From the IMG/VR virus record IMGVR_UViG_3300012007_000017, positions 1 to 64,000 of that record: a stretch of DNA of 64,000 nt; one strand, written 5' to 3'. Source of the DNA: an uncultured virus (IMG/VR IMGVR_UViG_3300012007_000017). Its lineage: Duplodnaviria; Heunggongvirae; Uroviricota; Caudoviricetes. The notes under the pieces are model-generated. The model was not told where the DNA came from. It searched no databases and saw only the letters and a program-made list of their open reading frames with translations. The translations under genes were made by a program, and so were the position numbers. This document shows positions 30,542-47,000 of the stretch, piece after piece (position 1 is the stretch's first letter; the number at the start of each line of letters is the position of its first letter).

Positions 30542-30625
30542 CAACCATCAAAAAACTCTACGGCATCATATTCGTTCTGATATGGTCTGTGGTGGGATAT
30601 ATCGGAGAACATTGCAACTAATTAA

Positions 30626-30778
30626 CCGAGAGGGCAGTTTCTTGAGCGCGGCTGGATAACCAGAGATGAATACGAAACTATGCAGGAATTATATAAACCG
30701 TATGTTAAACTTGGCGGTAATGGTTCAGGCACGAAAATAATGAAAGAAATCGAAAATCTACCAATCCGAGATAAATAA
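30626..30778 (+). pseudogene. 3' remnant of a conserved holin-like/lysis-adjacent phage gene
   Basis: Frame reads ERGWITRDEYE...YKPYVKLGGNG...IENLPIRDK*; in-frame stop at 30623 and no N-terminal half. Confidence 0.55.
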
Positions 30779-30788
30779 CACATTTAAT

Positions 30789-31157
30789 ATGTATGTTTAC
30801 TATAACGCGAATCCTTCGGGTAAGGCTACGGGAGACTGCGTAATAAGGGCTATCTCCACAATTACAGGTCTTCCGTGGCGAACAGTTCATTGGGAACTTG
30901 CAACTCTCAGTAACGAAATGTACCAAATGATGGATGATAACGTAGTTTGGCATGAATATTTGCGCAGGCTCGGATTCGATATTCGTACGGTACAGCTTCC
31001 TTGCACTAAAGTTGCAGACTTTGGTAAATGCTTTCCACACGGCAAGTATATCCTTGGAACAGGAAAGCACGTTGTAGCAGTAATTGACGGCGATTATTTA
31101 GATACTTGGGACTCAGGTAACGAACTCGCCGTCTTTTATTGGAAGTTGGAGGAGTAA
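30789..31157 (+). CDS. Conserved phage protein, possible papain-like fold
   Basis: NP...GDCVIRAI, HVVAVIDG, DTWDS (Cys/His/Asp). Confidence 0.55.
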   Translation: MYVYYNANPSGKATGDCVIRAISTITGLPWRTVHWELATLSNEMYQMMDDNVVWHEYLRRLGFDIRTVQLPCTKVADFGKCFPHGKYILGTGKHVVAVIDGDYLDTWDSGNELAVFYWKLEE

Positions 31158-31266
31158 TAACTTCGGTGGCGGAATAGGTAGACGCTTAGGAACCATAAGA
31201 CGTTTCCGTACAGTTAACGGTGGAAAAGTATGTCATGCGAGGTGCAGATCCTTGCCCGAAGTTATT
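31156..31266 (+). ncRNA. tRNA-like element (non-canonical)
   Basis: Closing stem aataacttcgg/ccgaagttatt, D-arm tggcggaataggtagacgc, T-arm-like gcgaggtgcagatccttgc; aberrant anticodon region; no CCA. Confidence 0.6.
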
Positions 31267-31286
31267 TCATATAGAAAGGAGACAAA

Positions 31287-31619
31287 ATGCCAACTAACTA
31301 TAATCAGTATCAGATTCCCCAGACGATTACCATGTTTACGGTACACGGGGAAGAGGGAGCCAATGCTTTTCCGGTAGCTCCAGGTCAGAAGGTAACTCTT
31401 ATTGATGCTGATAATGCAGTAATTTATGTCAAAAGTACCAATCAATTTGGACAGGCTCTGCCGCTTGAGGTTTATGACATGGTATTCAGACAGCCTCCTC
31501 AGCCTGAAGTACCGTCGGCCAATTCTTCCATGAGCAAAGAGGAGATCATCAGCACTGTCAACGACGCGGTTAAGGCTGCGATGAAACATTATTTTCCTCA
31601 GATCAAAATTGACGCATAA
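31287..31619 (+). CDS. Hypothetical protein (VAPG..V.L.D family)
   Basis: ORF with strong RBS. Confidence 0.6.
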   Translation: MPTNYNQYQIPQTITMFTVHGEEGANAFPVAPGQKVTLIDADNAVIYVKSTNQFGQALPLEVYDMVFRQPPQPEVPSANSSMSKEEIISTVNDAVKAAMKHYFPQIKIDA

Positions 31620-31629
31620 GGAGCATAAC

Positions 31630-31833
31630 ATGACATTTACAGAAGCGTATCGCGAGATGCGGAACGGAAAGAAGATAACGCACGAAAAATTCCACGGCGG
31701 TTATTGGGCATGGGAAAACGAAACCATCATGATTCATTGCCATGACGGAAGAGTCCTTGATATTCGACAGACTGAGGATGTATCATTTACCTTTGGCTTT
31801 ATCACCGAAGGCAAGTGGGATGTAATCGCTTAA
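31630..31833 (+). CDS. DUF2829-like small protein
   Basis: MTF.EA...M..GKK... and terminal W.V pattern; family name from recall. Confidence 0.5.
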   Translation: MTFTEAYREMRNGKKITHEKFHGGYWAWENETIMIHCHDGRVLDIRQTEDVSFTFGFITEGKWDVIA

Positions 31834-31852
31834 AATGCATGGAGGTGATGAC

Positions 31853-32074
31853 ATGGCTAATCCTTTATTTGGAAATGGCGGTAACAATAACATATTTGCT
31901 CCGTTTGGCGGCGCTATGAACTTTATGAATCAGTTTAATCAGTTCCGGCAGGGTATTCAGGGCAACCCTCAGCAAATGGTTCAGAACATGCTTCAAAATG
32001 GACAGATGAGCCAGGAGCAGTTCAACCAGCTGAGCAACATGGCCAGCCAGATCATGCCGTTTATGCGACGGTAA
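31853..32074 (+). CDS. Gln/Asn-rich small protein
   Basis: NPLF...NQFNQF..GNPQQMVQ; RBS ggaggtg. Confidence 0.6.
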   Translation: MANPLFGNGGNNNIFAPFGGAMNFMNQFNQFRQGIQGNPQQMVQNMLQNGQMSQEQFNQLSNMASQIMPFMRR

Positions 32075-32184
32075 ATCTGTCATATTTGCGAAAGAGGGTG
32101 ATTCCGTTGAGCTAGGTTCACGTCTTTCGAACACAACTTCATATGGAACAACTACATTATATTTTTACTTAAGGAGGAAACAAT

Positions 32185-32948
32185 ATGTCTCTTACCGATA
32201 ATAACAACGGAATGGTTATGCCTGTGTCTCCTATGTATGGTAACGGCGGTTATGGAAACAGCTTTGGCTACGGCGGAGATGGACTGTTCTGGATCATCAT
32301 TCTGTTCCTCTTCGCGGCCATGAACGGTAACGGCTTTGGAGGATGGGGCGGTAACGCCGGTGGTGTTCTTCCCTTTATGATGAACCAGTCCGGGCAGAGC
32401 GAAGTCCAGCGCGTTGTTGATCAGCAGTCTGTAATGACCGGTATTTCCGCACTCAGCGCAGCCCAGGCTAACGGATTTGCCAATGCCGAGATCTCGAGAT
32501 GCAATGGTCTCTATAACCTTACAAGTCAGCTCAATAATATCGCTATGAATCAGCAGAATTGCTGCTGTGAGAACAGGGCTGCAGTGGCTGATCTGAAGTA
32601 CACGATGGCTCAGGAGGCGGCTGCTACAAGAGCTAACACTGACGCCAAGGTCCAGAACGTTATGGATAAGCTTTGCCAGCTCGAGTTGGATGGAATTAAG
32701 CAGAACTATGAGAACAGAATCGCTAACATGCAGAACACGATCGATTCCCTGCGCACCATGAACTCCAACGCGAGATTTGATGCTTCTCAGAACCTGCAGA
32801 CGGCTCAGATCGTAGCTGACAACGCAGCCCAGACAGCGGCCCTTGAGCAGTATCTGGCTCCTACGCCAAAACCTTGCTATNNNNNNNNNNCCAGAACCCT
32901 AACTGCTGTGCTCCCCAGACCTTTGGCTGCAATTGCGGTGTTGCCTGA
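32185..32948 (+). CDS. Gly/Asn-rich, Cys-tailed protein (spans the N gap)
   Basis: One TM stretch, CCCE motif; after the Ns another frame gives QNPNCCAPQTFGCNCGVA* ending at 32948. Confidence 0.6.
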
Positions 32949-32958
32949 GGAGGACTAG

Positions 32959-33351
32959 ATGGAAGATATTTTACAGTTTGTAGAGCAGTTTCATTTTCGT
33001 AATGAACTGTGGGTATTATTCATTCCGCTGGGGCTGATGGCGATCGACGTGCTTACAGGTATCATCAAAGCTTGGGCGCATAATGATTTCCAGTCTGCAA
33101 TTATGCGTGCGGGTCTTGCTAAGAAAGCTGGAGAGATCATGATTCTGGTGGTTGGAGAACTGATTTCATATGGCCTTATGCTTCCTAACGTGATCATGAA
33201 TTGCATCAGTTTCTACATTATATTTATGGAGATCATGTCAATTCTGGAGAACGCTGACGAACTTGGAATACCAGTTCCCAAGTTTGTCAGAGATGTCATT
33301 AACAATGTAGACGATACGCTCCAGAACGGAGATAAGAAAGAAGAGGAATAA
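32959..33351 (+). CDS. Holin (phage holin 4-like family)
   Basis: D.LTG..KA, S..MR.GL.KK, E..SI.EN...G.P.P motifs; TM helices. Confidence 0.85.
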   Translation: MEDILQFVEQFHFRNELWVLFIPLGLMAIDVLTGIIKAWAHNDFQSAIMRAGLAKKAGEIMILVVGELISYGLMLPNVIMNCISFYIIFMEIMSILENADELGIPVPKFVRDVINNVDDTLQNGDKKEEE

Positions 33352-33353
33352 AT

Positions 33354-33791
33354 ATGGCAGCAGAATATGGAAGTGTTCAGGATCAGACTGTCGAAGACAA
33401 CCAGAACGTGCTCTTCGATAATATTACTCCTTGCGCTAGGGGCTTAATTCTTCACGGTAATGGTTCTGGCATTTTTACCATTAAGCCTCAGGTCGCAAAC
33501 CCTTGCACAAGATATGTAAGGCTTCTTGCGCTGTATCATGCCAATGTAAGCATACCTGAAGGCGGCACACCCGGACCCATTTCATTTGCAATTTCCATTA
33601 ACGGAGAGGCCGACCAGACCGTTGTAGCTACGACAACTCCTACTGTGGCGGAAGCCCTGTTCAATATCAGTCTTGCAAAGCTCATAACGATTCCGGTTGG
33701 TTGCTGCACACAGATCGCGGTGAAGAACATTACGGGCGCTGCTGTTGATGTCAATAAACCTCACTTGATCATCATGCCGCCCACTAACTAA
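33354..33791 (+). CDS. Hypothetical beta-rich protein (BclA C-terminal-like?)
   Basis: GSGIFT, GCC motifs; fold is inference. Confidence 0.45.
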   Translation: MAAEYGSVQDQTVEDNQNVLFDNITPCARGLILHGNGSGIFTIKPQVANPCTRYVRLLALYHANVSIPEGGTPGPISFAISINGEADQTVVATTTPTVAEALFNISLAKLITIPVGCCTQIAVKNITGAAVDVNKPHLIIMPPTN

Positions 33792-33807
33792 GGGGAGGAA
33801 TTATATT

Positions 33808-34230
33808 ATGTCTATGACTCGTGAACAGATGAACACAATTACAGATTTTGTCGACCTCTTGTGCAAGCAGATCGATAAGATTAATAAGAAGGGCGACATT
33901 ACTCCCGATGAGCTGCAGCGCATGGATAAAGCAATCGATATCATTAAGGATTGCTCTGTTATCTGCGCTATGGAAGAGTACGGCAAGGATCCTGAGGAGG
34001 AGATGTATTCTTCTATGGGCTACTACGGGAGAAACTCAAGAACCCAGATGCCGATGTGGTCTTCTCAGGTTAGAGACTCTATGGGCCGCTACTCCTCTTC
34101 AATGGGATATTCCAGGGATGATGGAGCCAAGCAGACTATGCGACACGATCTGGAAATGAAACTTGCAAACGCACACAACGAAGAAGAGCGCCGTATGTAT
34201 ATGCGCATGATGGACGCTCTGAATGGATGA
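33808..34230 (+). CDS. Hypothetical protein with RDSMGRYS motif
   Basis: ORF with RBS. Confidence 0.55.
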   Translation: MSMTREQMNTITDFVDLLCKQIDKINKKGDITPDELQRMDKAIDIIKDCSVICAMEEYGKDPEEEMYSSMGYYGRNSRTQMPMWSSQVRDSMGRYSSSMGYSRDDGAKQTMRHDLEMKLANAHNEEERRMYMRMMDALNG

Positions 34231-34238
34231 GGTGAATT

Positions 34239-34424
34239 ATGGCTAACACAATTCTTGAAAAGCTGCAGGAGAAATATCCTAACGCTTCGGGTATCGATGA
34301 CGCAAGGAATATTGCTGAGGCTGTAGCATGTATCAACGGCACCGGCGGCAGAGGGGCCAATGCGATCGCTGATAAGTTCCCTGTAATAACGGAGGACGAG
34401 GAAGAAGAGCCCGCCGAACATTAA
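34239..34424 (+). CDS. Hypothetical protein
   Basis: ORF with RBS gaggtg. Confidence 0.5.
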   Translation: MANTILEKLQEKYPNASGIDDARNIAEAVACINGTGGRGANAIADKFPVITEDEEEEPAEH

Positions 34425-34476
34425 GAGTTGAACATCCCTGCTAGCACATGTTTAACAAATAAAAAGTGGAGACGTA

Positions 34477-34695
34477 TGGTCACGGAATTGGTCATGAGTA
34501 GTGGCTAAAGCTTATATTTATGGGCAATGTAAAGTGGGTTCGAATCCCGCTATCTCCACTCACACAAAATCACCCCTAGGCATCATCACCGGTGTCTAGG
34601 GGGCTTTCTTTATGCATTTCTGAGAAACACTTCTTACAAATGCTATTATTTTTTCAGTTTTGAGAACCTAATTTGTCACGAATTTGGTCACGGAA
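34477..34695. mobile_element. attP-like site: tRNA 3'-end core flanked by arm-type repeats
   Basis: gtgggttcgaatcccgctatctcca at 34534-34558; paired (g)gtcacg repeats at 34477-34497 and 34673-34695. Confidence 0.65.
34573..34603. terminator. Hairpin terminator between convergent genes
   Basis: cccctaggcatc...ggtgtctagggg. Confidence 0.65.
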
Positions 34696-34925
34696 TCGAA
34701 GTGATTTAGCGCCTTGTCCGTAAGAGCAGCAGTCTCATCAGATATGGTGTGGCGATAGACGTAGATAAGGACATCAGGAGTCGACCAACCACCTCGTTCC
34801 ATAATGTAGGCGTCTGGCAGTCCGTTGGCATGAAGCGAAGAGACACAATAATGACGAGTAGAATGGAAGCAGTAAACGTCTTCTAGTCCAACGCGCTGTT
34901 GCATACGCCTGAAGTAGTGGCTGCT
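34668..34925 (-). pseudogene. int: C-terminal fragment of tyrosine integrase
   Basis: FHSTRH (HxxR), RGGW, VYRH catalytic Tyr; only ~80 codons remain. Confidence 0.85.
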
Positions 34926-35005
34926 AGATAAAGTTAGGTGATGGTTATATTTTACAGGTTCTTAAATAGGAAACTTTACAACCTATTTTTCAAAGGAGGT
35001 ACAAA

Positions 35006-35209
35006 ATGACTGGAGCAGACAATATTCGTATCGCATTGGACAATTTGACGATGGCTGTACAAGAAAATAGCTATGGTGGCCTCGGCATAGAGGTCATTCA
35101 GAGTTTTGGAGAGCTATATTCGGCAATCGGAATCTATGCTATGGAGATGGAATCGCTCAAGAAAGAAAATGCCATGCTTAGGAAAATGTTAGTTGAGAAG
35201 TTTGGCTAA
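35006..35209 (+). CDS. Cassette gene, hypothetical
   Basis: Motif, RBS, ORF, hairpin 35217-35248. Confidence 0.7.
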   Translation: MTGADNIRIALDNLTMAVQENSYGGLGIEVIQSFGELYSAIGIYAMEMESLKKENAMLRKMLVEKFG

Positions 35210-35307
35210 TGTTGAGGAGAGTACCTGTAGAATCTTACTGGTACTCTCTGTTTTTCTTTTACAGGTCTTAATATAGCAATAATGCTGTTTAAGAAAGGAG
35301 TAAGAAA

Positions 35308-35619
35308 ATGAGTAATCTGAAAGATCAAACGAGTATAACCAAAAAGCATTACATAGCGGGGCTCTTTACCGGACTAGGCGCTGGCGAAGTGGAGCGGAGA
35401 AAACGGGCGGTCGAAATGTTGATTGCTGACAAGGCTGAAGACGTAGATCTTATTGAAACGTTCTATGCCAGAGTTGACATGGAAATCGTGGGGTTGAAGG
35501 CGGCACTTGAACAGAGCAAGTCTGCTGAAGAGGCAAAAGCATGGGCAAAAGATGTTCGGGAGATAATCGAAGATTCTGGATTTATAGAAGCTTATATTGA
35601 CGGCAAATTTGCTATCTGA
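35308..35619 (+). CDS. Cassette gene, hypothetical
   Basis: Motif, RBS, ORF, hairpin 35630-35657. Confidence 0.7.
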   Translation: MSNLKDQTSITKKHYIAGLFTGLGAGEVERRKRAVEMLIADKAEDVDLIETFYARVDMEIVGLKAALEQSKSAEEAKAWAKDVREIIEDSGFIEAYIDGKFAI

Positions 35620-35714
35620 TGAAAAGACGGAGGGTCGCCAAATTTACGGTGGCTCTCTGTTTTTCTTTTACAGCTCTTGTTATAGCAAACTGTGCTGTAG
35701 AGAAAGGAGACTAT

Positions 35715-35984
35715 ATGGTAATCGGTAGAGTTGAAAGAGGCGGAGACCTTGAGATTCTTAAAGATTGGGATCTGAATTTCGAGTTGATAGAAGACAAAGA
35801 CGACTATCTTATCGCTATGACTATAGGCGATAAAGATGAAGAGAACGGAATTGTCGTAACGATCAACGCTGTAGATTTCGATGAAATTAGAGAAACTCTC
35901 ATGTTGGTCCGTTCACAGATTAACAAGAAGATTATACAGAAAAGAAAACTGAATAGAGCATTAGATCGTGAATTTAAAGAATAA
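35715..35984 (+). CDS. Cassette gene, hypothetical (start 35715)
   Basis: RBS aaaggag; the upstream extension in the ORF track runs through a terminator and the motif. Confidence 0.7.
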   Translation: MVIGRVERGGDLEILKDWDLNFELIEDKDDYLIAMTIGDKDEENGIVVTINAVDFDEIRETLMLVRSQINKKIIQKRKLNRALDREFKE

Positions 35985-36129
35985 TATCGAGGAGGGTCAT
36001 TGTGAATTACAGTGGCTCTCCGTTTTTTCTTACAGTGGCTCTCCGTTTTTTTCTAATTTTAGGTGTACACAATTTACAACCATTATTATAGCAATAATGC
36101 TGATTCAATTTACTTAGGAGGAAAATGAA

Positions 36130-36498
36130 ATGAAGAAAATGTTTATGGCAGTAGTAGCAGTAGTTATGGCAATGGCAACCGCAATGCCGGTAATGGCAAA
36201 GGAGGCGGAAGAACCTGTCGTATTGGCTGAGACAACAACTGAATACACTTTCTCAGAGATCGTTGAAGAAATTGAATATTTGGACATTGAGGAGGACGGA
36301 GAAGTCAAGTCCGTAGTCAAGAATGTTGACTATGAGCGTGAAACGTACACTCTGATTGTCACATACAAAGAGACCAATGATGATGGATTCGATTGGGTTT
36401 CCGTAATAGTTGAAAACGGAATGGTCGAGATCCAGGGCAAAGGTCCCGGACAGATGGTGGCAGCAGAGTACGGCTACGAACAGTTCATGGAACAGTAA
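36130..36498 (+). CDS. Cassette gene, acidic exported protein with signal peptide
   Basis: MKK-hydrophobic-VMA signal peptide; Glu-rich mature part. Confidence 0.7.
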   Translation: MKKMFMAVVAVVMAMATAMPVMAKEAEEPVVLAETTTEYTFSEIVEEIEYLDIEEDGEVKSVVKNVDYERETYTLIVTYKETNDDGFDWVSVIVENGMVEIQGKGPGQMVAAEYGYEQFMEQ

Positions 36499-36612
36499 GA
36501 ATACGGAGTGAGGAGTTTAACCGCTCCTCCTCTTTTTTATTTTCAGGTGTACAAAATTTACAGCCCTTATTATAGAAAGAATACACCATTTAAATATAGG
36601 AGGTACAAAACA

Positions 36613-36717
36613 ATGTTAGGAATTATTGATATGGTGCTTGGAGTAGCACTTATTATGGTATTAGTAGCATTCCCGATTTATGTACTTACATGGGAGAAAA
36701 GGTGGAGAGAAAATTGA
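36613..36717 (+). CDS. Cassette gene, 34-aa membrane peptide
   Basis: RBS aggagg; single TM helix. Confidence 0.6.
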   Translation: MLGIIDMVLGVALIMVLVAFPIYVLTWEKRWREN

Positions 36718-36840
36718 ATATGGATAAAGAGAGCATCTAAGACAGGTGCTCTTCTTTTTTTCTAATTTTAGGTGTACACAATTTACAACCCTTATTATAG
36801 AAAGATTACACTAGATTTCTATCTATAAGGAGGCAATAAA

Positions 36841-37034
36841 ATGGCAATCATTATGTTAATCGTATGTGTTAGCTGCAGAATTATCATGGACGTTATTGAT
36901 ATTCAGGAGGCAAGAGCATGATTAAGTGGTTGAGGAATTTACTAAAACTGAATAAAAAGAAAGAAGAGAAACATGTAATAACTATCGATACCGTCTTAGA
37001 GTGGACGGTGTACATTGAGGAATTTGGAGCATAA
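36841..37034 (+). CDS. Two coupled micro-ORFs (36841-36921, 26 aa; 36918-37034, 38 aa)
   Basis: Each has aggagg RBS; ATGA overlap; not in ORF track. Confidence 0.55.
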
Positions 37035-37124
37035 TTTAGGGCTCCTATTCCTTTTATTTTTGCCATGTTTGCCTTTTACAGTTCTTATATTAGAAACAAC
37101 TAACCTTAAAGAAAGGAGAACAAT

Positions 37125-37448
37125 ATGAAAATGTTTAGAAAATGGGAATTAGTCGTTCAGGAATGTGCTCGCCAGGGCAAAGAAAGTGTGCTTGCACTGG
37201 TGACGTTGGACGCAATAGCAGCGATATTCACCGTAGGCGTTATCACCATTTTCAGCGCAATTGTAGAGGCTTTTATAGGCGCTCCCAATTGGCCTGAATT
37301 GGTGCTGGCCTGGTTGGTGGTATATATCGGATGCTTCAATGTAGTCATCGAAGCCACGGCATACGGATTATGCAGGGACGAGCTTGGATGTGACAACGAC
37401 TACATGATCAGAAAATATGTAAAAGAACGTTTTGATGAAGAGATTTGA
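37125..37448 (+). CDS. Cassette gene, two-TM membrane protein
   Basis: Motif, RBS, hydrophobic segments, hairpin 37460-37487. Confidence 0.7.
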   Translation: MKMFRKWELVVQECARQGKESVLALVTLDAIAAIFTVGVITIFSAIVEAFIGAPNWPELVLAWLVVYIGCFNVVIEATAYGLCRDELGCDNDYMIRKYVKERFDEEI

Positions 37449-37519
37449 AAGGAGGTTGTGAGAGGCGTCTATTACAGGCGCTTCTCTTTTTTCCTGATTA
37501 TATTCTACAGTTTTTATAG

Positions 37520-37767
37520 TAGAGGTAAACATAGGCACCCTTAAGAAGCCAACGAACCTGTTAAGCAGGGGAGGCTGCTGTGGAAGTAACAGCTACCTAT
37601 GTATAAGCAGTAGCGTGGCTCACCTCTAATAAAAGGAACCGTGCCCATGTGTGGTAACCCTGAGAAGCATATGAAACTATCAGGGAGGTCTGGATAAAGG
37701 CCTTTAAAAGAGGGTTCGTCAACCACGGTAAATGTCCAGGGCGACGATAGTGACAAAGCCTTTTATT
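37520..37767 (+). ncRNA. Candidate structured ncRNA 1 (~250 nt, two multibranch domains)
   Basis: Follows motif at 37504; no RBS-led ORF; nested stems tagaggt/acctcta, acatagg/cctatgt, aataaaagg/ccttttatt, accgtg/cacggt, ccctga/tcaggg. Confidence 0.7.
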
Positions 37768-37800
37768 TTTCGGGTGTACACAATTTACAGCCCTTATTAT

Positions 37801-37925
37801 AGAAAGAATCAATGGATGACAACCACTCGTGATGGGGGCGTGTTAAGGCGTAAGGACCATCCACAGTAAGTCACTGAGCCGTCTTAGAACGGAGTGCTCA
37901 AACTGAACTTAACAGGTTCTTTTTA
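37801..37925 (+). ncRNA. Candidate structured ncRNA 2 (~120 nt)
   Basis: Follows motif at 37784; stems aaagaatc/ggttcttt, tggatg/catcca, tgagc/gctca, ccgt/acgg. Confidence 0.65.
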
Positions 37926-38121
37926 TTTTTGTAATTTCGGGTGTACGAGAATTACAGCTTTTAATATAGAAGAAAGGAGATGAATTAGATTACATATCTG
38001 TTTCACATCTAAACCCACAAGGAGGCTCGTTACAGGGCCTCTTCTTTTTTTGGTGTGCATAAATTACAGTTCCTAATATAGAAACTTATTGACCACAAAC
38101 AAACTTAAAAGGAGAAATGAA

Positions 38122-38253
38122 ATGAAGAAAGCAATCTTAGGTATCGTAGTGGTGGCAGTAGCAGGTATCGTAGTATGCGCTGTCGCAAAAGCGAACGGTG
38201 TTGACTTTGTTCAGGTTGAGGATACACCTGAGGAGAAGTTCGTGGAAGAGTGA
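38122..38253 (+). CDS. Cassette gene, 43-aa membrane-anchored peptide
   Basis: MKKAILGIVVVAVAG...; RBS aaaggag; not in ORF track. Confidence 0.6.
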   Translation: MKKAILGIVVVAVAGIVVCAVAKANGVDFVQVEDTPEEKFVEE

Positions 38254-38365
38254 GCCTGATCCACTTTACGGATTGACAACTGAATAATGGATTTGGAAGA
38301 GTCGTTAGCGGAAATTGCAACGGCTCTTTCCTTTTTTTACTTAATTATTTTTAGGAGGAGACGGA

Positions 38366-39058
38366 ATGAGACAACCCGAAGATATTAAGATTGGCAATAG
38401 GACATTGGCAGAGGTCATTGAGAATCACAAGCATTGGTGGAAGGAGGATTGCGAAGGATGGAGAGACATGAGAGCAGGCCTCTTTAGAGCAGGCCTCTTT
38501 AGAGCAGACCTCAGTGGAGCAGACCTCTTTAGAGCAAACCTCCGTGGAGCAAACCTCCGTGGAGCAGACCTCAGTGGAGCAGACCTCAGTGGAGCAGACC
38601 TCAGTGGAGCAGACCTCAGTGGAGCAAACCTCAGTGGAGCAGACCTCAGTGGAGCAAACCTCAGTGGAGCAAACCTCAGTGGAGCAGACCTCTGTGGAGC
38701 AAACCTCAGTGGAGCAAAGAATGTTCCATATATCCCTTATGCTTGCCCCGACTTTGGGATGTTCATAGGTTTCAAAAAAGCGTCTGGTTACATTGTTGTG
38801 CTAGAAATCCCAGAGGATGCAAAAAGGCTCTCCGCAACAGGTCGCAAATGCAGATGCGACAAGGCAAAGGTTCTTGAGATTCAGAACGTTGATGGCACCA
38901 AAGCTAATGTTACAAAGGTTAAGAGCGGCTATGATTCGAACTTTGTTTATGAGGTAGGCAAAACGGTAAGCGTTGACAACTTCTGTGAGGACAGGTGGAG
39001 TGAATGCAGCCCAGGAATCCACTTTTTTATCAATCGCCAAGAGGCTATTAATTATTGA
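38366..39058 (+). CDS. Pentapeptide-repeat protein
   Basis: A[DN]L[SR]G repeats; C-terminal KCRC.KA..., EC.PGIHFF domain. Confidence 0.9.
38471..38716 (+). repeat. 15-bp tandem repeat (~16 units) encoding the pentapeptides
   Basis: gagcaRacctcagtg units. Confidence 0.95.
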
Positions 39059-39152
39059 GAGGTGACGGAATGAGCTACATAGATCGTAAGCAGTAAACCC
39101 GTACGCAGGTGACGAGGTAAGCGGATATATTTGTAGAAAGGAGTTACAGGCG

Positions 39153-39920
39153 ATGGGACGAGGATTGTATGGGCAGCGTATCATACAGGATTGGATAGAG
39201 GATAAACGTAAATCTCCTCTTAAAGAAGGAGACATATCTCTCTTGAATGTAGAGTACGCTATGGACATGTATAGAATTAAGAGAGAGTTTTCTCGGATTA
39301 CAACACTTAATTATTTTTGTATGATGCGGCTGTCTAAAAGCAAATACGAAGAAAACAATTATCGATGCATGCTGAATTCAGCGGTTAAGCAGCGGGATTT
39401 TTGTTGGGCAGTATACTGCAATCTTGAGAAATGGGTTGTTGATCCTAAATGGAAAAAGACCTTTGAGCGGGAAATTAAGCAGCTCGACAGTCGCCAAAAG
39501 CATATATACAGGATCGTTCAGGAAAATTTGAAGCTAACCGAATATTGGCCATTTTTTGAGGCAGTTGGCTTTGAACGTCTTTTAAACTTTGAAACTGAAT
39601 ATCGCGAAGATCCTTATGACATTGTGCTTGATCCGTTATTGACGGAAATCGAAGCATGGAACCGTGAGCACAAAGATGAGGTCGACGCCTACACGAAGAA
39701 GATTCAGCCCGAGCTTGACCGTAAAATCGCTTTTCTTACTAGAAAGGAGGCAATGGCAGAAGCTGAAAAAGAAGCCGAGCGAGCTAAGAAAAAAGCTGCC
39801 AAAGACGAGGAGAAAATGCTTAAAGAACAGCGCATACTTAACGACCGGGAAAGACGCAGAGAAGAGCGTGAGTTTAATAGCCTTATGCGTCGGACTAGTA
39901 CACCAGGCTGGACAAGCTGA
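39153..39920 (+). CDS. Hypothetical protein, charged coiled C-terminus
   Basis: 255-aa ORF with RBS. Confidence 0.65.
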   Translation: MGRGLYGQRIIQDWIEDKRKSPLKEGDISLLNVEYAMDMYRIKREFSRITTLNYFCMMRLSKSKYEENNYRCMLNSAVKQRDFCWAVYCNLEKWVVDPKWKKTFEREIKQLDSRQKHIYRIVQENLKLTEYWPFFEAVGFERLLNFETEYREDPYDIVLDPLLTEIEAWNREHKDEVDAYTKKIQPELDRKIAFLTRKEAMAEAEKEAERAKKKAAKDEEKMLKEQRILNDRERRREEREFNSLMRRTSTPGWTS

Positions 39921-39952
39921 TTATATTTTGTAGAAAGGAAATATGAGCAAAT

Positions 39953-40171
39953 ATGATCGAAATATCACTCACTTTAGCGATTATTCTGCTGATTATATTT
40001 TTTATAAGCGGTTTTTTGGCTGGAAGATACTCCAAAAAGCCTGATAAGCGCAAGGGCACTATGACTGTCGATGAGATGATGGGAATCGCTTCTATCAGTT
40101 GGGAAGTTCCTTACGAGGAGGTGGTACAGGCCGATACCATCAGACTCGATGTCATTCATAAGGATGCTTGA
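39953..40171 (+). CDS. Small membrane-anchored protein
   Basis: N-terminal TM helix. Confidence 0.6.
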   Translation: MIEISLTLAIILLIIFFISGFLAGRYSKKPDKRKGTMTVDEMMGIASISWEVPYEEVVQADTIRLDVIHKDA

Positions 40172-40229
40172 ATTTTACAGTTCCTATAATAGGTAACTAT
40201 TGGCTTGCATAAGAAAAGGAGGATTTATT

Positions 40230-40808
40230 ATGCAAATGGAGAAACTGGATAAAATAGCAGATGATTTGGCGGACATGATTTCTGCCGGAACTTCATCAGC
40301 TGCAGAATCGGAAGAGGAACAAGGGAATGTGTTTATCCCTGTAGGCGAATTCCGAGATGTTGCAAAGGCCAGAAACGAACAGGCTAAGCAGGACAATGAG
40401 CAACTCCACTGGGAGACTGAGTGGAAGAAAGCCGAGTTGGACGCAGCAACCAAGCAGAAAGAGGTTGAACTGGAACTGAAGAAGCTGGAGCAGGCGCTGG
40501 AAATCGAGAAGATGAGAGCCGAGAATGAAAAGGCGATCGCGGAGATGAAAGCACTTAACGATCAGCAGGTAGCAGAGACCAGAGCCGCATCTGAAAAGGA
40601 AGCTGCGGAAATTAATAAGGCTGCTTCTGACACTCGCTCTAAGAGAGATCTCATCGGCCGTATCTTGGACTTTATCGGAAGGGTACTTGTTGCAGTCTTG
40701 GGGCTCGGGGCATGCATTTATCAAGCCTCGACCATTCTGCGGGAGGAGGAAGACGGAAATTACGTCAATACCCGCAGCACCAATTTCTGGCATAAGCCCA
40801 GAACGTAA
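40230..40808 (+). CDS. Cassette gene, coiled-coil protein with C-terminal TM helix
   Basis: Motif 40174, RBS, hairpin 40822-40851. Confidence 0.7.
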   Translation: MQMEKLDKIADDLADMISAGTSSAAESEEEQGNVFIPVGEFRDVAKARNEQAKQDNEQLHWETEWKKAELDAATKQKEVELELKKLEQALEIEKMRAENEKAIAEMKALNDQQVAETRAASEKEAAEINKAASDTRSKRDLIGRILDFIGRVLVAVLGLGACIYQASTILREEEDGNYVNTRSTNFWHKPRT

Positions 40809-40932
40809 GTCAGTAACCAAAGGAGGACTTGGCAGAAATGTCAGGTCCTCTGTCTTTTTCATGGTGTACACAAATTACAGTTCCTAATATAGACACTATA
40901 AACTTTGTATTTTTGGGAAAGGAGAAGAAGGC

Positions 40933-41004
40933 ATGAGTTTCGGTATCGTACTTATCTTAATAGGAGTACTCTGGATCATGTTCGAAAACAAGAAGTCAGA
41001 GTAA
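40933..41004 (+). CDS. Cassette gene, 23-aa hydrophobic peptide
   Basis: MSFGIVLILIGVLWIMFENKKSE; sole ORF between motif 40874 and hairpin 41028-41061. Confidence 0.6.
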   Translation: MSFGIVLILIGVLWIMFENKKSE

Positions 41005-41112
41005 CACATAGTATCTAAGGAACTGGCGAAGAGTCGTTGTAAAAGAATACAGCGGCTCTTCTGTTTTTGCTGTAGGAGGCAAGCGATTATATTTTTAGAA
41101 AAGGAGAACAGA

Positions 41113-42162
41113 ATGAGTAACTACAAGACAAAGGAAGCAAACGAAAAGTCAGAGAAGATTCTTGATTATATTTCTGCAAACAGCGAGCAGGGCGTAACCA
41201 TCAAAGACATCGCAATCGCCTTTAACATGCCTGCAGAGACAGTTCGCCATTACGTCAAGACCTTATTCAACAACGGTTACATCGATCGCAGACAGCAGGG
41301 CTATGGTTCTACTCACAGATATTTCTGGAAGAAGCCTGAGGACAAGTCTCAGAATACTATGGAGGATACTGACAAAGAAGCAATGGGCGGAGTCGAGAGA
41401 GATCCTAGCACAATCATTAAGTGCGGCGAGTTCTGCAAAACCGGTGATGTCGTAGAGTGCTCCAGCAGATCTGGTGAAGGATTATATTTCAAGTATCTTG
41501 TACTGGTACCGTGGGAGCGTAAGGCGATGGTTCTCGGAATCTTTCCCGAAGGCCATCCGAATCTCAATCTTAATGACCCGAACCATATTTACATCGGTGA
41601 CGATCCTGAGACCGGCAACAAGCTCTATGTAGATGTCACCAATGTGTGCCAGAGAGGATACAAAACCTTCGGCAAGAGATTCTTCCACGCTGAGAAAGAA
41701 CGCATGGATGATGTCAAGAGCAGACTCAAGAGGGTTTTGCGTCTGGCTGAGCCTGGGCCTAATATCAAAGCTGAGAACCAGGAGCTTCAGGATGATATTC
41801 GGCAGTATAAGCTCGAGAATAAGGCAATGGCTCAGAGATACGAGCAGGATATTAAGGACATTAAAGCGACTCTCGATGCTGCACACGGAGCGGCTATGGA
41901 GTATGAGGCTAAGTACATAGCGGTGCTTAAGGAGAATCAGGAGCTTAACAGGCTTATTGAAAAGCTTAAGGACGAGACTCCTCACGATAAGGAAACCATC
42001 GAACCTGAGTACGATCCTGATTATGTGCAGAAACTGGAAGCCAAGTATGGAGACGCTTTGGTCAAGCTCAAGGCTGCAGAAACCAGAGTCGAGGATTACG
42101 ACTATTTTACTGATGCTATGAAAGATATTGTGATGAAAGTACTTGATAAAGGAGGAAATTAA
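41113..42162 (+). CDS. Winged-HTH and coiled-coil protein
   Basis: TIKDIA..FNM..ETVRHYVK.L...GYI; heptad-rich C-terminus. Confidence 0.7.
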   Translation: MSNYKTKEANEKSEKILDYISANSEQGVTIKDIAIAFNMPAETVRHYVKTLFNNGYIDRRQQGYGSTHRYFWKKPEDKSQNTMEDTDKEAMGGVERDPSTIIKCGEFCKTGDVVECSSRSGEGLYFKYLVLVPWERKAMVLGIFPEGHPNLNLNDPNHIYIGDDPETGNKLYVDVTNVCQRGYKTFGKRFFHAEKERMDDVKSRLKRVLRLAEPGPNIKAENQELQDDIRQYKLENKAMAQRYEQDIKDIKATLDAAHGAAMEYEAKYIAVLKENQELNRLIEKLKDETPHDKETIEPEYDPDYVQKLEAKYGDALVKLKAAETRVEDYDYFTDAMKDIVMKVLDKGGN

Positions 42163-42332
42163 TGCACGAACGTAAAGTTGGTAGACCGCCTCTTCCTGCA
42201 GGAGACCGTAAGGACAAGTCTGTACGGATTAGGCTGTCAACTGATGAACTGAATAGTGTGGTGAAGAAGGCTGAGGAAGAACAAACCTCGGTCTCTTCTT
42301 ATATTCGCGAGAGGATTAAGAACAATGGATGA
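42162..42332 (+). CDS. Ribbon-helix-helix-like DNA-binding protein
   Basis: GRPP...VRIRLS.DE......AEE...SVS.YIR; not in ORF track. Confidence 0.65.
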   Translation: MHERKVGRPPLPAGDRKDKSVRIRLSTDELNSVVKKAEEEQTSVSSYIRERIKNNG

Positions 42333-42483
42333 ACTGAAATTTGTAGAATTTGATAAGTACTGCAGTACATGCATTCACAAGGATGAAGAGGAGAGCGATC
42401 CTTATAAGAAATGCAATGACTGTCTGGCTATTCCGGCAAGAGAGTATTCGCACAAACCTGAGTACTATAAGAAGAAAGATTAA
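42325..42483 (+). CDS. Small Cys-rich protein
   Basis: YCSTC...CNDC; not in ORF track. Confidence 0.6.
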   Translation: MDELKFVEFDKYCSTCIHKDEEESDPYKKCNDCLAIPAREYSHKPEYYKKKD

Positions 42484-42503
42484 TTATATTTAGGAGGAGC
42501 ATT

Positions 42504-42701
42504 ATGGCAGAAAGAATTACGAACACTCTGTTCAAAATTCATGTTGGACGCTTTATTTGGTATGTCAATATGTGGACGTGGTGCTGGGAACATAACGCAC
42601 CGATTTTCATTACGCGGTTGCTCGTTATGCTAATCAAAGTTAATGCAAAAACCGCAGACTTTTTATACAGGTCCCCCGAGTACTCCAAAAAGAAAGATTA
42701 A
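42504..42701 (+). CDS. Hypothetical protein flanked by 43-bp direct repeats
   Basis: RBS; repeats 42457-42499 and 42675-42717. Confidence 0.55.
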   Translation: MAERITNTLFKIHVGRFIWYVNMWTWCWEHNAPIFITRLLVMLIKVNAKTADFLYRSPEYSKKKD

Positions 42702-42722
42702 TTATATTTAGGAGGAGGTACT

Positions 42723-42998
42723 ATGTTAGGTTTTTTCTGTGACTGGTGCGGTAAACCATACAAGCCATATCCTGTGAAAGAATACGGAAACACCATGGCT
42801 GCCGGTTTCTTAAGTAAGAAAAGCGACGCTGACAAGAAAGAGATTCCTATAGGCACTAAAGTTGTTGGCGAAGCCTGGGCATCAATAGAGGGACGCAGCG
42901 AATATGGCTTAAATACTTCTCAAATTTGCCCTGACTGCTATGAGGCATATTTGGAATTTGTGAAGAATAGGAAGGAAGGAACCAATGATCAAGCTTGA
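42723..42998 (+). CDS. Zinc-finger-like protein
   Basis: CDWC...CPDC. Confidence 0.6.
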   Translation: MLGFFCDWCGKPYKPYPVKEYGNTMAAGFLSKKSDADKKEIPIGTKVVGEAWASIEGRSEYGLNTSQICPDCYEAYLEFVKNRKEGTNDQA

Positions 42999-43842
42999 TA
43001 AGATATTCAATCCTAAGGTGCTTAGCGCATTGGCTGTGGCGGGTGTCGTGGCTACAGCAATAATGGCGGCACTCGAAGGAATCAATGGCAGCGATGTTAT
43101 CAGAGAAGCTAAGAAAACCGCTCCTAAGGAAGGCGTCTGGGCTATCTCCAAGCATTATATTCCCAGAGTAGTTCCTGCATTTGGCAAAACCATTGTCATA
43201 GGTGGCGTAACCGTGTTCTGCGTTGTAACATCATGCTACCTCAGTGGTCTGCAGATTGTAGCTTTATCTGGCACCATTGCAGGACTTGTCAGTCAGAGAG
43301 ATGCAGTAGAGAAGGAAATCGTTAAGCTTCCAGGCGGCAAAGAAGCTCTTGCAAAGGTCAAGAAGGAAGTCGCTCTGGCTACGGCTGAGAAGAAGATCGC
43401 TGAGAATGAAAAGCGTAAACCTTGGAAGTATCAGACGATCGAAGATACCGGTTACGGAGATGAATTGTTCCTTGACGAATGGTCTGGGCGATTGTTCCTG
43501 TCATCAGAAGAAGCGGTGAGAAGAGGCTTCGAAAACTTCAATGCTGAAAGAGATGATGGAATGGATCTTCCTTACAATGGGCATAGTGATATGAATCTAC
43601 CGCCAGCAAGTTCATATAACGACTTGTTTACAGCGTGGGGTTTGGTCCCAAGCGGATTAGGCTGGGCTTTTGGATGGCCTGCTAGCGATGATTATTATGA
43701 GCACAGAGCTATACCCTATACTATCGAAGTTATTCCTGTCGAAGAAATGAAAGACAAGGAACTTGAGAAGTACGGAAAAGATCTGCATATCATCCGTATT
43801 CCTGCAGGCTACTATCCTATGGAGTGTTACCTCGAGGTCTGA
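42985..43842 (+). CDS. Membrane-anchored paralogue 1 (DUF6353-like, from recall)
   Basis: P.hydrophobic N-terminus, second TM, acidic C-domain; similar layout to 44186 and 53045. Confidence 0.55.
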   Translation: MIKLDKIFNPKVLSALAVAGVVATAIMAALEGINGSDVIREAKKTAPKEGVWAISKHYIPRVVPAFGKTIVIGGVTVFCVVTSCYLSGLQIVALSGTIAGLVSQRDAVEKEIVKLPGGKEALAKVKKEVALATAEKKIAENEKRKPWKYQTIEDTGYGDELFLDEWSGRLFLSSEEAVRRGFENFNAERDDGMDLPYNGHSDMNLPPASSYNDLFTAWGLVPSGLGWAFGWPASDDYYEHRAIPYTIEVIPVEEMKDKELEKYGKDLHIIRIPAGYYPMECYLEV

Positions 43843-43902
43843 TTATATTTTACAGTTCCTATAGTAGGTAGCATTGAAATATTTTTGGAAAGGAGGAGCA
43901 GG

Positions 43903-44124
43903 ATGGTAACTATGATATTGGTATTTTGCCTTATCGTGGTGCTGATCGGGTTCGCTATCGGAGCACTCGTGTTAGGAGTATGCTCGATTGGAACTCTTTT
44001 GGCGCTTGGATTCGAGTTGGCACTGTACCTGATGCCGGTAATTATCATCTACATGATTGCAAGAGTAGTGTGGAAGATGACTACCACGAAAAAGGCCATA
44101 AAGAAGGCTAAAGAAAAAGAGTAA
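43903..44124 (+). CDS. Cassette gene, small membrane protein
   Basis: Motif 43849; hairpin 44132-44163. Confidence 0.65.
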   Translation: MVTMILVFCLIVVLIGFAIGALVLGVCSIGTLLALGFELALYLMPVIIIYMIARVVWKMTTTKKAIKKAKEKE

Positions 44125-44185
44125 CTGAGATAGAGGACTCGTAAGATTGATTACGGGTCCTCTTATATTTTTTTTGGAGGTAGAA

Positions 44186-44977
44186 ATGAAACTCAAGAAC
44201 ATAGCCAAATTTGCCAGCGCTATCGGGAAGGGCATAGATGAGTATGGTCCCCAGATTATGGCGGTTGGCAGTGCTATATGCTTTGTAACAGGTGTTATAT
44301 TTGCGGCAAAGGAAAGCCCTGCAGCATTAGAGGCATTAGAAGAGAAGGTAGCAGAGAACCCTGATATGAATATTTTTGAGAAGGGCGCTACAGTAGTCAG
44401 CAGAATGCCTAAGACAGTAATCGCTACAGTTTCCGGTTTAGCGATGCATATTTTTGCCTGGAAGAAAGTTCTGGGAAAACTCGCCACTGTTACAGGCATT
44501 GCGGCCGTTGTCACACAGGATAATGTTAATCTCGTAGAAGCAGCAAAGGAGGTAGTAGGCCCTGACAAGGCCAAGGAAATTGTCAAGGTTAAGGACCAGA
44601 TGACCCAATGGGATGAAGATCCAACGGATAAGATTGATGTTATATATCCTTACACATGGGATGGCCTGGGTATAACGGTTTGGATGACTCCTGCCGAGTA
44701 TGCAGATCGAACTAACGAGAATATCGACCAGTTAGCTGACAACGAAGAGCTTCCTGTATTTGACTACTTCTACAATTACAAATGCGCGTATCCGCCTAAT
44801 CAGGACTATGGATGGAGCCTTGATAGCAGCGGTTGCGGGGCAAATCCCAGTGACATAAGAAGATGGGCTAAGGATGAACTCCATGCTGAACTGAAGCAGC
44901 ATATGTATAAGGGCAAGTATCCTGGGTATCTGGTTGTGCTCGACAACATGCCGTGTGAGCCTGTCGAGAATCGCTAA
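44186..44977 (+). CDS. Membrane-anchored paralogue 2
   Basis: YGPQIMAVG...AAKE pattern. Confidence 0.55.
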   Translation: MKLKNIAKFASAIGKGIDEYGPQIMAVGSAICFVTGVIFAAKESPAALEALEEKVAENPDMNIFEKGATVVSRMPKTVIATVSGLAMHIFAWKKVLGKLATVTGIAAVVTQDNVNLVEAAKEVVGPDKAKEIVKVKDQMTQWDEDPTDKIDVIYPYTWDGLGITVWMTPAEYADRTNENIDQLADNEELPVFDYFYNYKCAYPPNQDYGWSLDSSGCGANPSDIRRWAKDELHAELKQHMYKGKYPGYLVVLDNMPCEPVENR

Positions 44978-45072
44978 TTATATTTGGTAACATAGGGGCT
45001 GTGCACAAATAACAGCTCCTATAATAGCAAGAAATAGTTCTTGTGTTATACATTAAGAAAGGAGGACTTATT

Positions 45073-46990: not shown

Positions 46991-47000
46991 AGGAGGTACT

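What the first reader, a model, noticed from the sequence alone, without database searches (positions are those of the whole stretch)
37520..37767. Cassette containing a ~250-nt structured non-coding RNA instead of a gene
Seen: after the motif at 37504 there is no RBS-led ORF. Domain 1 has nested stems 37520-26/37622-28, 37529-35/37596-602, agcc/ggct, cctg/cagg and gctgt/acagc. Domain 2 is closed by aataaaagg/ccttttatt (37628-36/37759-67) with accgtg/cacggt, ccctga/tcaggg, aggtct/aggcct and a possible tcgtc/gacga pseudoknot. I do not recognise it as tRNA, tmRNA, SRP, 6S or a hammerhead.
Basis: partly seen in the sequence, partly recalled or inferred. Interest (0 to 1): 0.8.

Follow-up and report, generated by a model that had tools for sequence, protein, structure and literature searches.

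The report
Orphan small RNA unit in phage
A rumen phage carries a short promoter-to-terminator unit that holds no gene and probably makes a roughly 240-base RNA of unknown family, sitting exactly where its closest relative carries a tRNA gene; the elaborate fold proposed for it is not supported.

Summary
The window is a complete 66-kb siphophage record from ruminant gut. Its early region is built of units: a promoter-like motif, a Shine-Dalgarno-led small gene, and a terminator. Of 17 such units, 14 hold a gene. Three consecutive ones (A = the finding, then B and C) do not.

Unit A (motif 37505-37524, body about 37527-37770) has no + strand ORF over 18 aa. It has no Rfam match and no tRNA or tmRNA.

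In the only relative found (L007) the flanks are conserved, but the slot holds a tRNA. One RNA-library contig of 231 nt covers 37530-37760.

But the + strand folding energy is no better than shuffles (z -0.63 to -0.87). Only 2 of the 9 stems are stable in the ensemble, and the first stem overlaps the -10 element.

No divergent homologue was found, so covariation is untestable.

Verdict: a probable accessory phage small-RNA gene of a new sequence family. Its structure and function are unproven. Interest is moderate.

The parts
37460..37486 (+). Intrinsic terminator of the upstream 107-aa gene (37125-37448). It marks the left border of unit A.
   Evidence: 11-pair stem with 6 GC pairs, followed by TTTTTT. 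It is conserved in L007 4323-4366.
37505..37524 (+). Promoter-like motif of unit A, CTACAG-TTTT-TATAGT-AGAG. The -10-like hexamer is 37515-37520.
   Evidence: Aligned by eye with the other units. It matches the copy at 52700 at 16 of 20 positions. It has 4 mismatches to the search pattern, so it is not among the 17 matches. The DNA run X2 variant has T>C at 37511, 37513 and 37514, which makes it 19 of 20 identical to the 52700 copy.
37527..37770 (+). Predicted non-coding transcript A, about 240 nt. The 5' end is inferred at about 37523-37530 and the 3' end in the U-run.
   Evidence: The start is inferred from -10 geometry. The RNA-library contig X17 record 1 (231 nt) lies on 37530-37760 with 4 differences. 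There is no ORF over 18 aa and no Rfam, tRNA or tmRNA match.
37658..37685 (+). Hairpin ccctga / 16-nt loop / tcaggg. One of the two helices that are robust in the ensemble.
   Evidence: pair probabilities 0.89-0.99. It is present in every MFE and centroid structure.
37686..37703 (+). Hairpin aggtct / ggataa / aggcct. The second robust helix.
   Evidence: pair probabilities 0.86-0.99.
37628..37636 (+). A-rich arm aataaaagg, complementary to ccttttatt at 37759-37767.
   Evidence: Its ensemble probability is only 0.12 when the transcript starts at 37520, and 0.00 when it starts at 37523 or 37527.
37759..37770 (+). ccttttattttt: the U-run that ends the unit. No canonical GC-rich hairpin stands directly before it.
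   Evidence: The terminator scan lists none here. The same 12-mer ends two other units, at 37050 and 52993.
37493..37760 (+). The stretch that has no counterpart in relative L007, where 110 nt with a tRNA stand instead.
   Evidence: the flanks match (37450-37492 at 95%, 37761-38098 at 89%) and nothing matches between them. The L007 tRNA lies at 4399-4476.
37785..37935 (+). Neighbouring unit B: motif 37785-37804, about 125 nt without an ORF, and a terminator with U-run.
   Evidence: It is conserved in L007. 2 of 36 predicted pairs changed on both sides and stayed paired. RNA-library contigs cover 37803-37979 and 37820-37989.
37952..38050 (+). Neighbouring unit C: motif 37952-37971, AAAGGAG followed by ATG-AAT-TAG, and a terminator at 38020-38043.
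   Evidence: L007 keeps the mini-frame with GTG and keeps the terminator stem through paired changes (read by eye).

Best explanation
Unit A is an independent small-RNA gene of the phage.

Host RNA polymerase starts at the unit's own promoter-like motif (-10-like TATAGT at 37515-20; start inferred near 37527). It stops in the U-run at 37761-37770. The product is an untranslated RNA of about 240 nt.

The RNA is accessory cargo of a slot in the early region. In the closest relative that slot carries a tRNA gene. It is followed by two more gene-less units (B, C), so the phage has a small cluster of RNA genes.

I infer that the product acts in trans as an RNA early in infection, on the host's translation or defence machinery, as phage tRNAs do. 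It is not an mRNA or a leader.

Shown: the anatomy, the lack of a gene, the slot exchange, and near-identical copies in other samples.
Hinted: that it is transcribed as a discrete RNA.
Inferred: its strand, its ends and its trans action.
Unknown: its fold and its target.
For: 1. Unit architecture. The motif occurs 17 times, all on the + strand, against 2.53 +/- 1.48 expected; 0 of 100 shuffles reach 17. One of these 17 (35582, 3 mismatches) lies inside a gene and is dropped; with A's own copy added that makes 17 units. In 14 of them a Shine-Dalgarno sequence and a start codon follow within about 25-45 nt. A, B and C are the 3 exceptions.

2. A has no + strand ORF over 18 aa.

3. In L007 the neighbour gene is 92% identical. 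The flanks align, but the 268 nt are replaced by a unit with its own motif and a tRNA. ARAGORN calls tRNA-Leu(taa), and Rfam tRNA scores 31.7 bits against a gathering score of 29. So the slot holds RNA genes.

4. A 231-nt contig from an RNA library (X17) lies wholly on 37530-37760 with 4 differences. These ends are 3 and about 1-10 nt from the predicted start and the U-run.

5. In DNA run X2 one contig carries A with 9 differences in 285 nt. In that same contig the neighbour gene is diverged: 6 of 40 differ in the only piece laid, and the rest is reported as replaced or diverged. Three of those differences bring A's promoter spacer closer to the consensus of other copies.

6. Neighbour B shows 2 compensatory pairs against L007. 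Structured-RNA cargo in this cluster is therefore plausible.
Against: - The + strand folding energy is not better than shuffles (z -0.63, -0.87, -1.39, +0.19). The - strand folds relatively better (z -2.67).
- There is no canonical terminator hairpin before the U-run.
- The RNA evidence is one low-depth contig (3.29) from one study. Contigs show neither strand nor true ends, and DNA carry-over in that library is not excluded.
- No divergent homologue was found anywhere. Neither conservation over distance nor covariation supports a function.
- A 16-18-aa frame with a weak ribosome site exists.
Confidence: 0.5

Rival explanations
1. Transcribed but functionless filler. On this reading the body is a decayed or scrambled remnant, of an old small gene or of recombination between units. 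It keeps a promoter and a U-run and drifts neutrally, and its stems are incidental.
For: - The + strand folding energy is indistinguishable from shuffles.
- The ensemble is ill-defined.
- No homologue was found beyond near-identical copies.
- The relative L007 does without it in the 27.5 kb held.
Against: - The frames carry 4-10 stops in about 100 codons, so it is not a recent pseudogene.
- In X2 it is much better conserved than the adjacent protein gene on the same contig.
- Complementary words exceed shuffles at p about 0.01-0.03.
- Its promoter copy is kept, and in X2 it is closer to consensus.
Confidence: 0.22
2. A cis-acting element rather than a trans-acting RNA. It could be a long leader or attenuator that sets how much transcription runs on into units B and C and the genes after them. 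Or it could be a DNA-level site (inverted repeats bound by a protein, or a replication or recombination site).
For: - The U-run has no strong hairpin, so read-through is likely.
- CCCUG at 37658-62 could pair with either CAGGG at 37681-85 or CAGGG at 37737-41, as in a switch.
- The excess of complementary words is Watson-Crick only, and the - strand folds better, as expected for DNA-level inverted repeats.
- The region has the lowest G+C of the window, 0.398 in 36001-38000.
Against: - B has its own full promoter motif directly downstream, so a leader is not needed.
- The slot holds a tRNA in the relative, so the site is not an essential cis element.
- Cumulative GC skew shows no turn here.
- The RNA-library contig stops at 37760.
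Confidence: 0.1
3. A micropeptide gene. On this reading the unit's product is the 16-aa peptide MCGNPEKHMKLSGRSG (ATG 37647) or its 18-aa GTG-started form, and the rest is untranslated region.
For: The frame exists, with AAAGGAA about 9 nt upstream. No difference was listed in 37640-37700 in X2 or X17, but 13 differences were not shown.
Against: - All 14 coding units have a strong AGGAGG-type site within about 45 nt of the motif. This frame starts about 120 nt in and has a weak site.
- The peptide is neither hydrophobic nor otherwise recognisable.
- About 190 of about 240 nt would be untranslated.
Confidence: 0.06

Closest known systems
Small stable RNAs encoded in the phage T4 tRNA gene cluster (species 1 and 2, rnaC/rnaD) - recalled from memory, no call
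   Same: Untranslated phage RNAs of 100-250 nt with no known function, encoded among or in place of phage tRNA genes in a non-essential region.
   Different: No sequence relation was tested or expected. The T4 RNAs are matured from a tRNA precursor, whereas unit A has its own promoter-like motif and U-run. The host and phage type also differ.
Phage-encoded tRNA genes as accessory or counter-defence cargo. The abstract start of PMC13096335 was seen in the listing; the general knowledge is recalled.
   Same: Unit A occupies the same slot, with the same unit design (own motif, RNA, U-run), as the tRNA of relative L007.
   Different: A has no cloverleaf. ARAGORN found 0 genes at default and under 6 relaxed settings, and the Rfam tRNA model gave no match even at E<=10.
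Large phage-associated structured RNAs near tRNAs (GOLLD, ROOL) and other Rfam phage RNAs - names recalled
   Same: Non-coding RNA of unknown role carried by phages of Firmicutes-type hosts.
   Different: Those RNAs are 500-800 nt and are Rfam families. No Rfam family matched A at gathering score, or at E<=10 within its body.
6S RNA, SRP RNA and tmRNA (stable RNAs of similar size)
   Same: Size range 100-350 nt, with paired ends possible.
   Different: No match to any of these models. The only tmRNA-like signal in the window is a weak 3' fragment at 34380-34561, far from A.

Membership tests
tRNA | Cloverleaf with acceptor, D, anticodon and T arms | tested here: not met
   ARAGORN found 0 genes in the window and 0 in 37450-38100 under 6 settings, including introns, a lowered threshold and mitochondrial type. 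There is no Rfam tRNA match at E<=10. The same tools do find the tRNA in L007.
tmRNA | tRNA-like domain plus tag reading frame | tested here: not met
   ARAGORN -m found 0. No Rfam tmRNA match in 36500-38500.
Any curated RNA family (Rfam 15: riboswitches, ribozymes, 6S, SRP, RNase P, GOLLD, ROOL, HEARO and others) | Score at or above the family's gathering threshold | tested here: not met
   0 matches in the window at gathering score. At E<=10 nothing lies inside 37562-37767.
Independent bacterial/phage sRNA gene | Own promoter upstream | tested here: inconclusive
   The motif copy at 37505-37524 is of the same type as the 16 gene-leading copies. Its promoter activity is inferred, not measured.
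Independent bacterial/phage sRNA gene | Intrinsic terminator (GC-rich hairpin plus U-run) at the 3' end | tested here: inconclusive
   A U-run is present at 37761-37770, but no hairpin meets the scan's criteria. Only a long-range A/U-rich 9-bp complement exists, with ensemble p <= 0.12.
Independent bacterial/phage sRNA gene | A discrete transcript | tested here: inconclusive
   One 231-nt RNA-library contig lies on 37530-37760, from one study at depth 3.29. Contigs give no strand or true ends.
Structured non-coding RNA | Folding energy below that of dinucleotide shuffles | tested here: not met
   z -0.63, -0.87, -1.39 and +0.19 on the + strand.
Structured non-coding RNA | Covariation in base pairs across homologues | not testable with these tools
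   Only near-identical copies are known, and they were seen only as difference tables. No homologue was fetched.
Small-protein gene | Ribosome-binding site and ORF close behind the promoter, as in the other units | tested here: not met
   The two 71-aa - strand frames have no Pfam match, and one of them has no relative in the protein collection.
Integron-type gene cassette | Promoterless cassette bounded by attC inverted repeats, next to an integron integrase | tested here: not met
   Each unit carries its own promoter-like motif and terminator, and the motif is directional rather than an inverted repeat. The only integrase signal is a 78-aa remnant below Pfam's cut-off (24.4 bits against 27.1).

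The most novel reading that the evidence does not exclude
The slot is an exchange point for RNA cargo, and A is a new class of phage accessory RNA. On this reading it is a stable decoy or mimic that neutralises a host RNA-binding or RNA-targeting factor, such as a defence nuclease or a translation regulator. It would be functionally interchangeable with the odd tRNA that the sister phage carries at the same place. Together with B and C it would form an RNA-only counter-defence or host-takeover cluster.
Probability: 0.12. Interest if true: 0.75.

Novelty: new member of a known kind. Interest (0 to 1): 0.4.

Why it matters
Phage-encoded non-coding RNAs other than tRNAs are few, and most have no known role. 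This case offers three things:

- a cleanly bounded unit with a predictable promoter and end;
- a natural allele swap (tRNA against orphan RNA) in otherwise syntenic phages;
- two further gene-less units next door, one of which has compensatory changes.

If the RNA is real and active, the trio would be a compact test bed for RNA-based host manipulation by gut and rumen phages. It would also add an RNA family that no library holds. If it is inert, it shows how promoter-terminator modules in phage early regions shuffle and decay.

Tried and rejected
HOMOLOGUE HUNT FOR A. Every search was empty or gave chance hits only.

- Phage GenBank collection: blastn of 37450-38100 and megablast of 30000-45000 found nothing.
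- IMG/VR exact patterns: a 27-mer that, as I later saw, spans two variable sites; a 19-mer; and a 16-mer that gave 28 loci, about the number I estimate by chance, none alignable by nhmmer at E<=100.
- Metagenome contigs: a 20-mer found nothing. A 21-mer found one locus, L239. It shares 23 nt and nothing more, lies in an unrelated bacterial contig inside an open frame, and has no Rfam match there. I judge it chance.
- nhmmer of A against all fetched loci found nothing.
- 1,203 sampled genomes of three Clostridia-type orders, and 5 named genomes, gave only T-run matches.
- The relative's whole record gave no match.
- A protein search with the 71-aa - strand frame, meant to catch mis-called ORFs over copies of A, found no candidate.
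- A scan for the shared promoter-flank word and one for a B-specific 20-mer brought back only the L007 contig, besides single chance hits.

REJECTED READINGS AND WITHDRAWN POINTS.

- Empty-slot allele. The X19 joint 37493->37773 first looked like an empty slot. Its side is only 26 letters. Its loose end and inserted letters match, by eye, the paralogous terminator-promoter junction of L007 at 3570-3660. I withdrew it.
- X17 flanks. X17 shows no cover on the flanks of A. I do not use that as evidence.
- Antisense targets. The longest complement in the phage genome is 12 nt, and 41 of 100 shuffles reach 12 or more. This includes a 12-mer against B's terminator (37554-65 against 37908-19).
- DGR template or repeat. 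The own-genome search finds only promoter and terminator repeats.
- Phage RNA polymerase or sigma factor for the odd promoter. None was seen among the 30 proteins scanned against PHROGs or the 35 scanned against Pfam.

FAILED CALLS.

Full report
WHAT THE WINDOW IS

The window is the first 64,000 bases of a 66,153-base virus record that CheckV rates complete. PHROGs identify a large terminase, a portal, a protease/major-head fusion, a 2,174-aa tape measure, tail fibre, holin and endolysin-type proteins, and a 1,367-aa primase-polymerase. It is therefore a siphophage-type genome. Every long ORF lies on the + strand.

Public runs that hold parts of the 36.9-38.4 kb stretch are mostly labelled bovine, goat or animal gut. 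Relatives of a neighbouring protein sit in Clostridia-type genomes. The host itself is not known.

THE UNITS

From about 34.9 kb onward the genome is cut into short units. A search for TTACAG-N4-TWW-TATAGAA with up to 3 mismatches gives 17 matches, all on the + strand, against 2.53 +/- 1.48 expected. None of 100 shuffles reaches 17.

Aligning the copies shows that the conserved core is TTACAG, four pyrimidine-rich bases, a -10-like hexamer (TATAAT, TATTAT, TAATAT, TATAGT) and AG. One of the 17 matches (35582, 3 mismatches) lies inside a gene, and I dropped it.

Unit A's own copy, CTACAGTTTTTATAGTAGAG at 37505-37524, has four mismatches to the pattern and so was not in the list. It is 16 of 20 identical to the copy at 52700. 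That makes 17 units in all.

- 14 of the 17 units have an AGGAGG-type site and a start codon about 25-45 nt behind the motif.
- The three that do not are consecutive: A (37505-), B (37785-) and C (37952-).
- Terminator-like hairpins with U-runs follow the small genes: 16 found against 9.2 +/- 3.4 in shuffles. One lies at 37460-37486, just before A.
- I found no phage RNA polymerase or sigma factor, so I take the motif to be read by the host enzyme. That is an inference.
- There is no good -35 hexamer at the usual distance, and TTACAG sits only four bases from the -10. I cannot explain this.

CHECKING THE OBSERVATION

The negative part holds.

- Each + frame of 37490-37800 has 4-10 stops.
- The longest + ORFs are 18 and 16 aa, behind a weak AAAGGAA.
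- Rfam gives nothing at gathering score in the window and nothing inside the body at E<=10.
- ARAGORN finds no tRNA or tmRNA, even with relaxed settings.

Perfect complementary words are more frequent than in dinucleotide shuffles: 6-mers 17 against 6.67 (11 of 1000 shuffles reach it), and 7-mers 6 against 1.59 (25 of 1000).

The claim of a defined two-domain fold does not hold up.

- The + strand minimum free energy is ordinary: z -0.63, with 51 of 200 shuffles folding as well.
- From the predicted start, z is -0.87.
- Domain 2 alone gives -1.39 and domain 1 alone +0.19.
- The - strand does better (z -2.67, 2 of 200). This fits stems made of Watson-Crick pairs only, and it gives no support for the + strand RNA in particular.
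- In the ensemble, only the two adjacent hairpins at 37658-37685 and 37686-37703 are stable (p about 0.9-0.99). The other seven helices have p <= 0.17.
- The 5' arm of stem P1 (37520-26) overlaps the last base of the -10-like hexamer and the bases before the expected start. That start is about 7 nt after the hexamer, near 37527. So P1 is probably not part of the RNA.

THE RELATIVE

One IMG/VR contig (L007; 27.5 kb, rated 44% complete) encodes the neighbouring 107-aa protein at 92% identity. It is syntenic with 32-43 kb of the window, with mosaic gaps.

Around the finding, 37450-37492 aligns at 95% and 37761-38098 at 89%. Nothing aligns to 37493-37760. In L007 that slot is 110 nt. It holds another copy of the promoter motif, a tRNA (ARAGORN Leu-taa; Rfam tRNA 31.7 bits against 29) and a U-run.

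So the slot carries RNA genes, and the two phages differ in which one. A is not elsewhere in the 27.5 kb held.

The window itself has no tRNA.

READS

I laid Logan contigs of three RNA-library runs and one DNA run on 36900-38400.

- X17 (RNA library) has a contig of 231 nt that lies wholly on 37530-37760, with 4 differences. Its ends fall 3 nt from the predicted start and at the first base before the U-run.
- This is one contig, from one study, at depth 3.29. Contigs give neither strand nor true ends, and DNA in the library is not excluded. I count it as a hint only.
- X2 (DNA) has a 1,164-nt contig that carries 37431-37715 with 9 differences. The neighbouring gene in the same contig is largely too diverged to lay, and the one 40-nt piece that was laid has 6 differences.
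- Two of the X2 differences (37551 A>C, 37553 C>T) are shared with X17.
- Three more (37511, 37513, 37514 T>C) turn A's promoter spacer into the CTCC of the 52700 copy.
- A second X2 contig (894 nt) shares only 37664-37715, with 4 differences. It may be a more distant relative, but I could not fetch it.
- A joint in X19 that looked like an empty slot turned out, on comparison with L007 3570-3660, to be the paralogous junction upstream. I withdrew it.
- An X19 contig that ends 24 letters past 37492 reads, by eye, like the L007-type promoter. That suggests the tRNA allele occurs there too.

NEIGHBOURS

Unit B (about 37807-37935) is 89% conserved in L007. In a two-sequence consensus fold, 2 of 36 pairs changed on both sides and stayed paired. 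Its single-sequence energy is unremarkable (z +0.34).

Unit C starts with AAAGGAG and a two-codon frame (ATG-AAT-TAG). L007 keeps this frame with GTG, and C's terminator stem differs from L007's by paired changes (read by eye).

A therefore sits at the head of a three-unit stretch without genes.

HOMOLOGUES

I found none beyond the near-identical copies above. The searches are listed under Tried and rejected. Covariation, the test that would settle the structure, could not be run.

INTERPRETATION

The most economical reading is an independent small-RNA gene carried as accessory cargo. Its promoter, its lack of a gene, its U-run, its exchange with a tRNA, its better conservation than the neighbouring gene in X2, and the RNA-library contig all point that way.

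What the RNA does is not shown. By analogy with the tRNA in the same slot, and given the early-region setting, I infer action in trans on host translation or defence (confidence 0.5 for the whole statement).

The main rival is an inert transcribed remnant (0.22). A cis-acting leader or DNA site (0.10) and a 16-aa peptide (0.06) follow.

COMPARISON WITH KNOWN THINGS

It works most like the small stable RNAs that phage T4 encodes in its tRNA cluster, and like other orphan phage RNAs. Those names are recalled, not tested. It is not a member of tRNA, tmRNA or any Rfam family (tests above), and it is not an integron-type cassette.

Literature searches:
- Searches (phage non-coding RNA and metatranscriptomes; phage small RNA, anti-defence, tRNA, decoy) returned nothing on such a unit.
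- I saw only listings and abstract starts, including PMC13096335 on tRNA-linked counter-defence in T6.
- These two searches were general and cannot show that the element is unpublished.

VERDICT

This is a real, cleanly bounded, gene-less unit that probably makes an orphan RNA of about 240 nt. It is a new member of a known kind, and interest is moderate (0.4).

Noticed in passing
window 37785-37935; L007 4519-4652: Unit B is a second gene-less promoter-to-terminator unit of about 125 nt. It is conserved in the relative, with 2 pairs changed on both sides and kept. RNA-library contigs cover 37803-37979 and 37820-37989. There is no Rfam match.
   Followed up: partly
window 37952-38050; L007 about 4670-4790: Unit C has a strong AAAGGAG followed by a two-codon frame (ATG-AAT-TAG). 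The relative keeps this frame as GTG-AAT-TAG. The relative also has extra letters in the body, and its terminator stem differs by paired changes (read by eye).
   Followed up: no
L007 4399-4476: The tRNA in the relative's slot is unusual. It has anticodon UAA (Leu) but only a short variable region. G stands where U33 is expected, and the last anticodon-stem pair is mismatched. Its Rfam score is barely above threshold, 31.7 against 29.
   Followed up: no
window 34380-34904: There is a weak match to the 3' part of tmRNA (13.8 bits, E 9.4e-4, model positions 162-374) ending in a T-arm-like GGGTTCGAATCCC. Next to it, on the - strand, is a 78-aa integrase remnant (Pfam 24.4 bits, below the cut-off of 27.1). 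Together they look like a decayed attachment-site and integrase module.
   Followed up: partly
window, 17 sites between 34952 and 52719: The promoter-like motif has an odd geometry. The conserved TTACAG lies only four bases upstream of the -10-like hexamer, and there is no conserved -35 at 16-18 nt. A subset of copies adds GGTGTACA further upstream. No phage sigma factor or RNA polymerase was found.
   Followed up: partly
window 37557-37579; L239 94-118 (- strand): A shares an exact 23-nt word with an unrelated bacterial metagenome contig. The word lies inside an open frame there, and nothing else is shared. It is probably chance.
   Followed up: yes
window 37554-37565 and 37908-37919: Twelve bases of A are the exact complement of the terminator hairpin of unit B. 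Matches of this length are common in shuffles: 41 of 100 reach 12 or more.
   Followed up: partly
window 38366-39920 against L007: The pentapeptide-repeat + DUF5758 protein (38366-39058) has 228 confirmed relatives among viral contigs. It and the following 255-aa ORF have no counterpart in the otherwise syntenic relative.
   Followed up: no
window 46980-47633 and 48188-48781: There are Pfam matches to the dATP/dGTP diphosphohydrolase N-terminal domain and to a nucleoside 2-deoxyribosyltransferase-like family. This may point to altered nucleotide metabolism or a modified base.
   Followed up: no
window 36614-37034: Several motif-led units encode very small, apparently hydrophobic peptides of about 25-40 aa, each with its own promoter-like motif and terminator (read by eye).
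   Followed up: no
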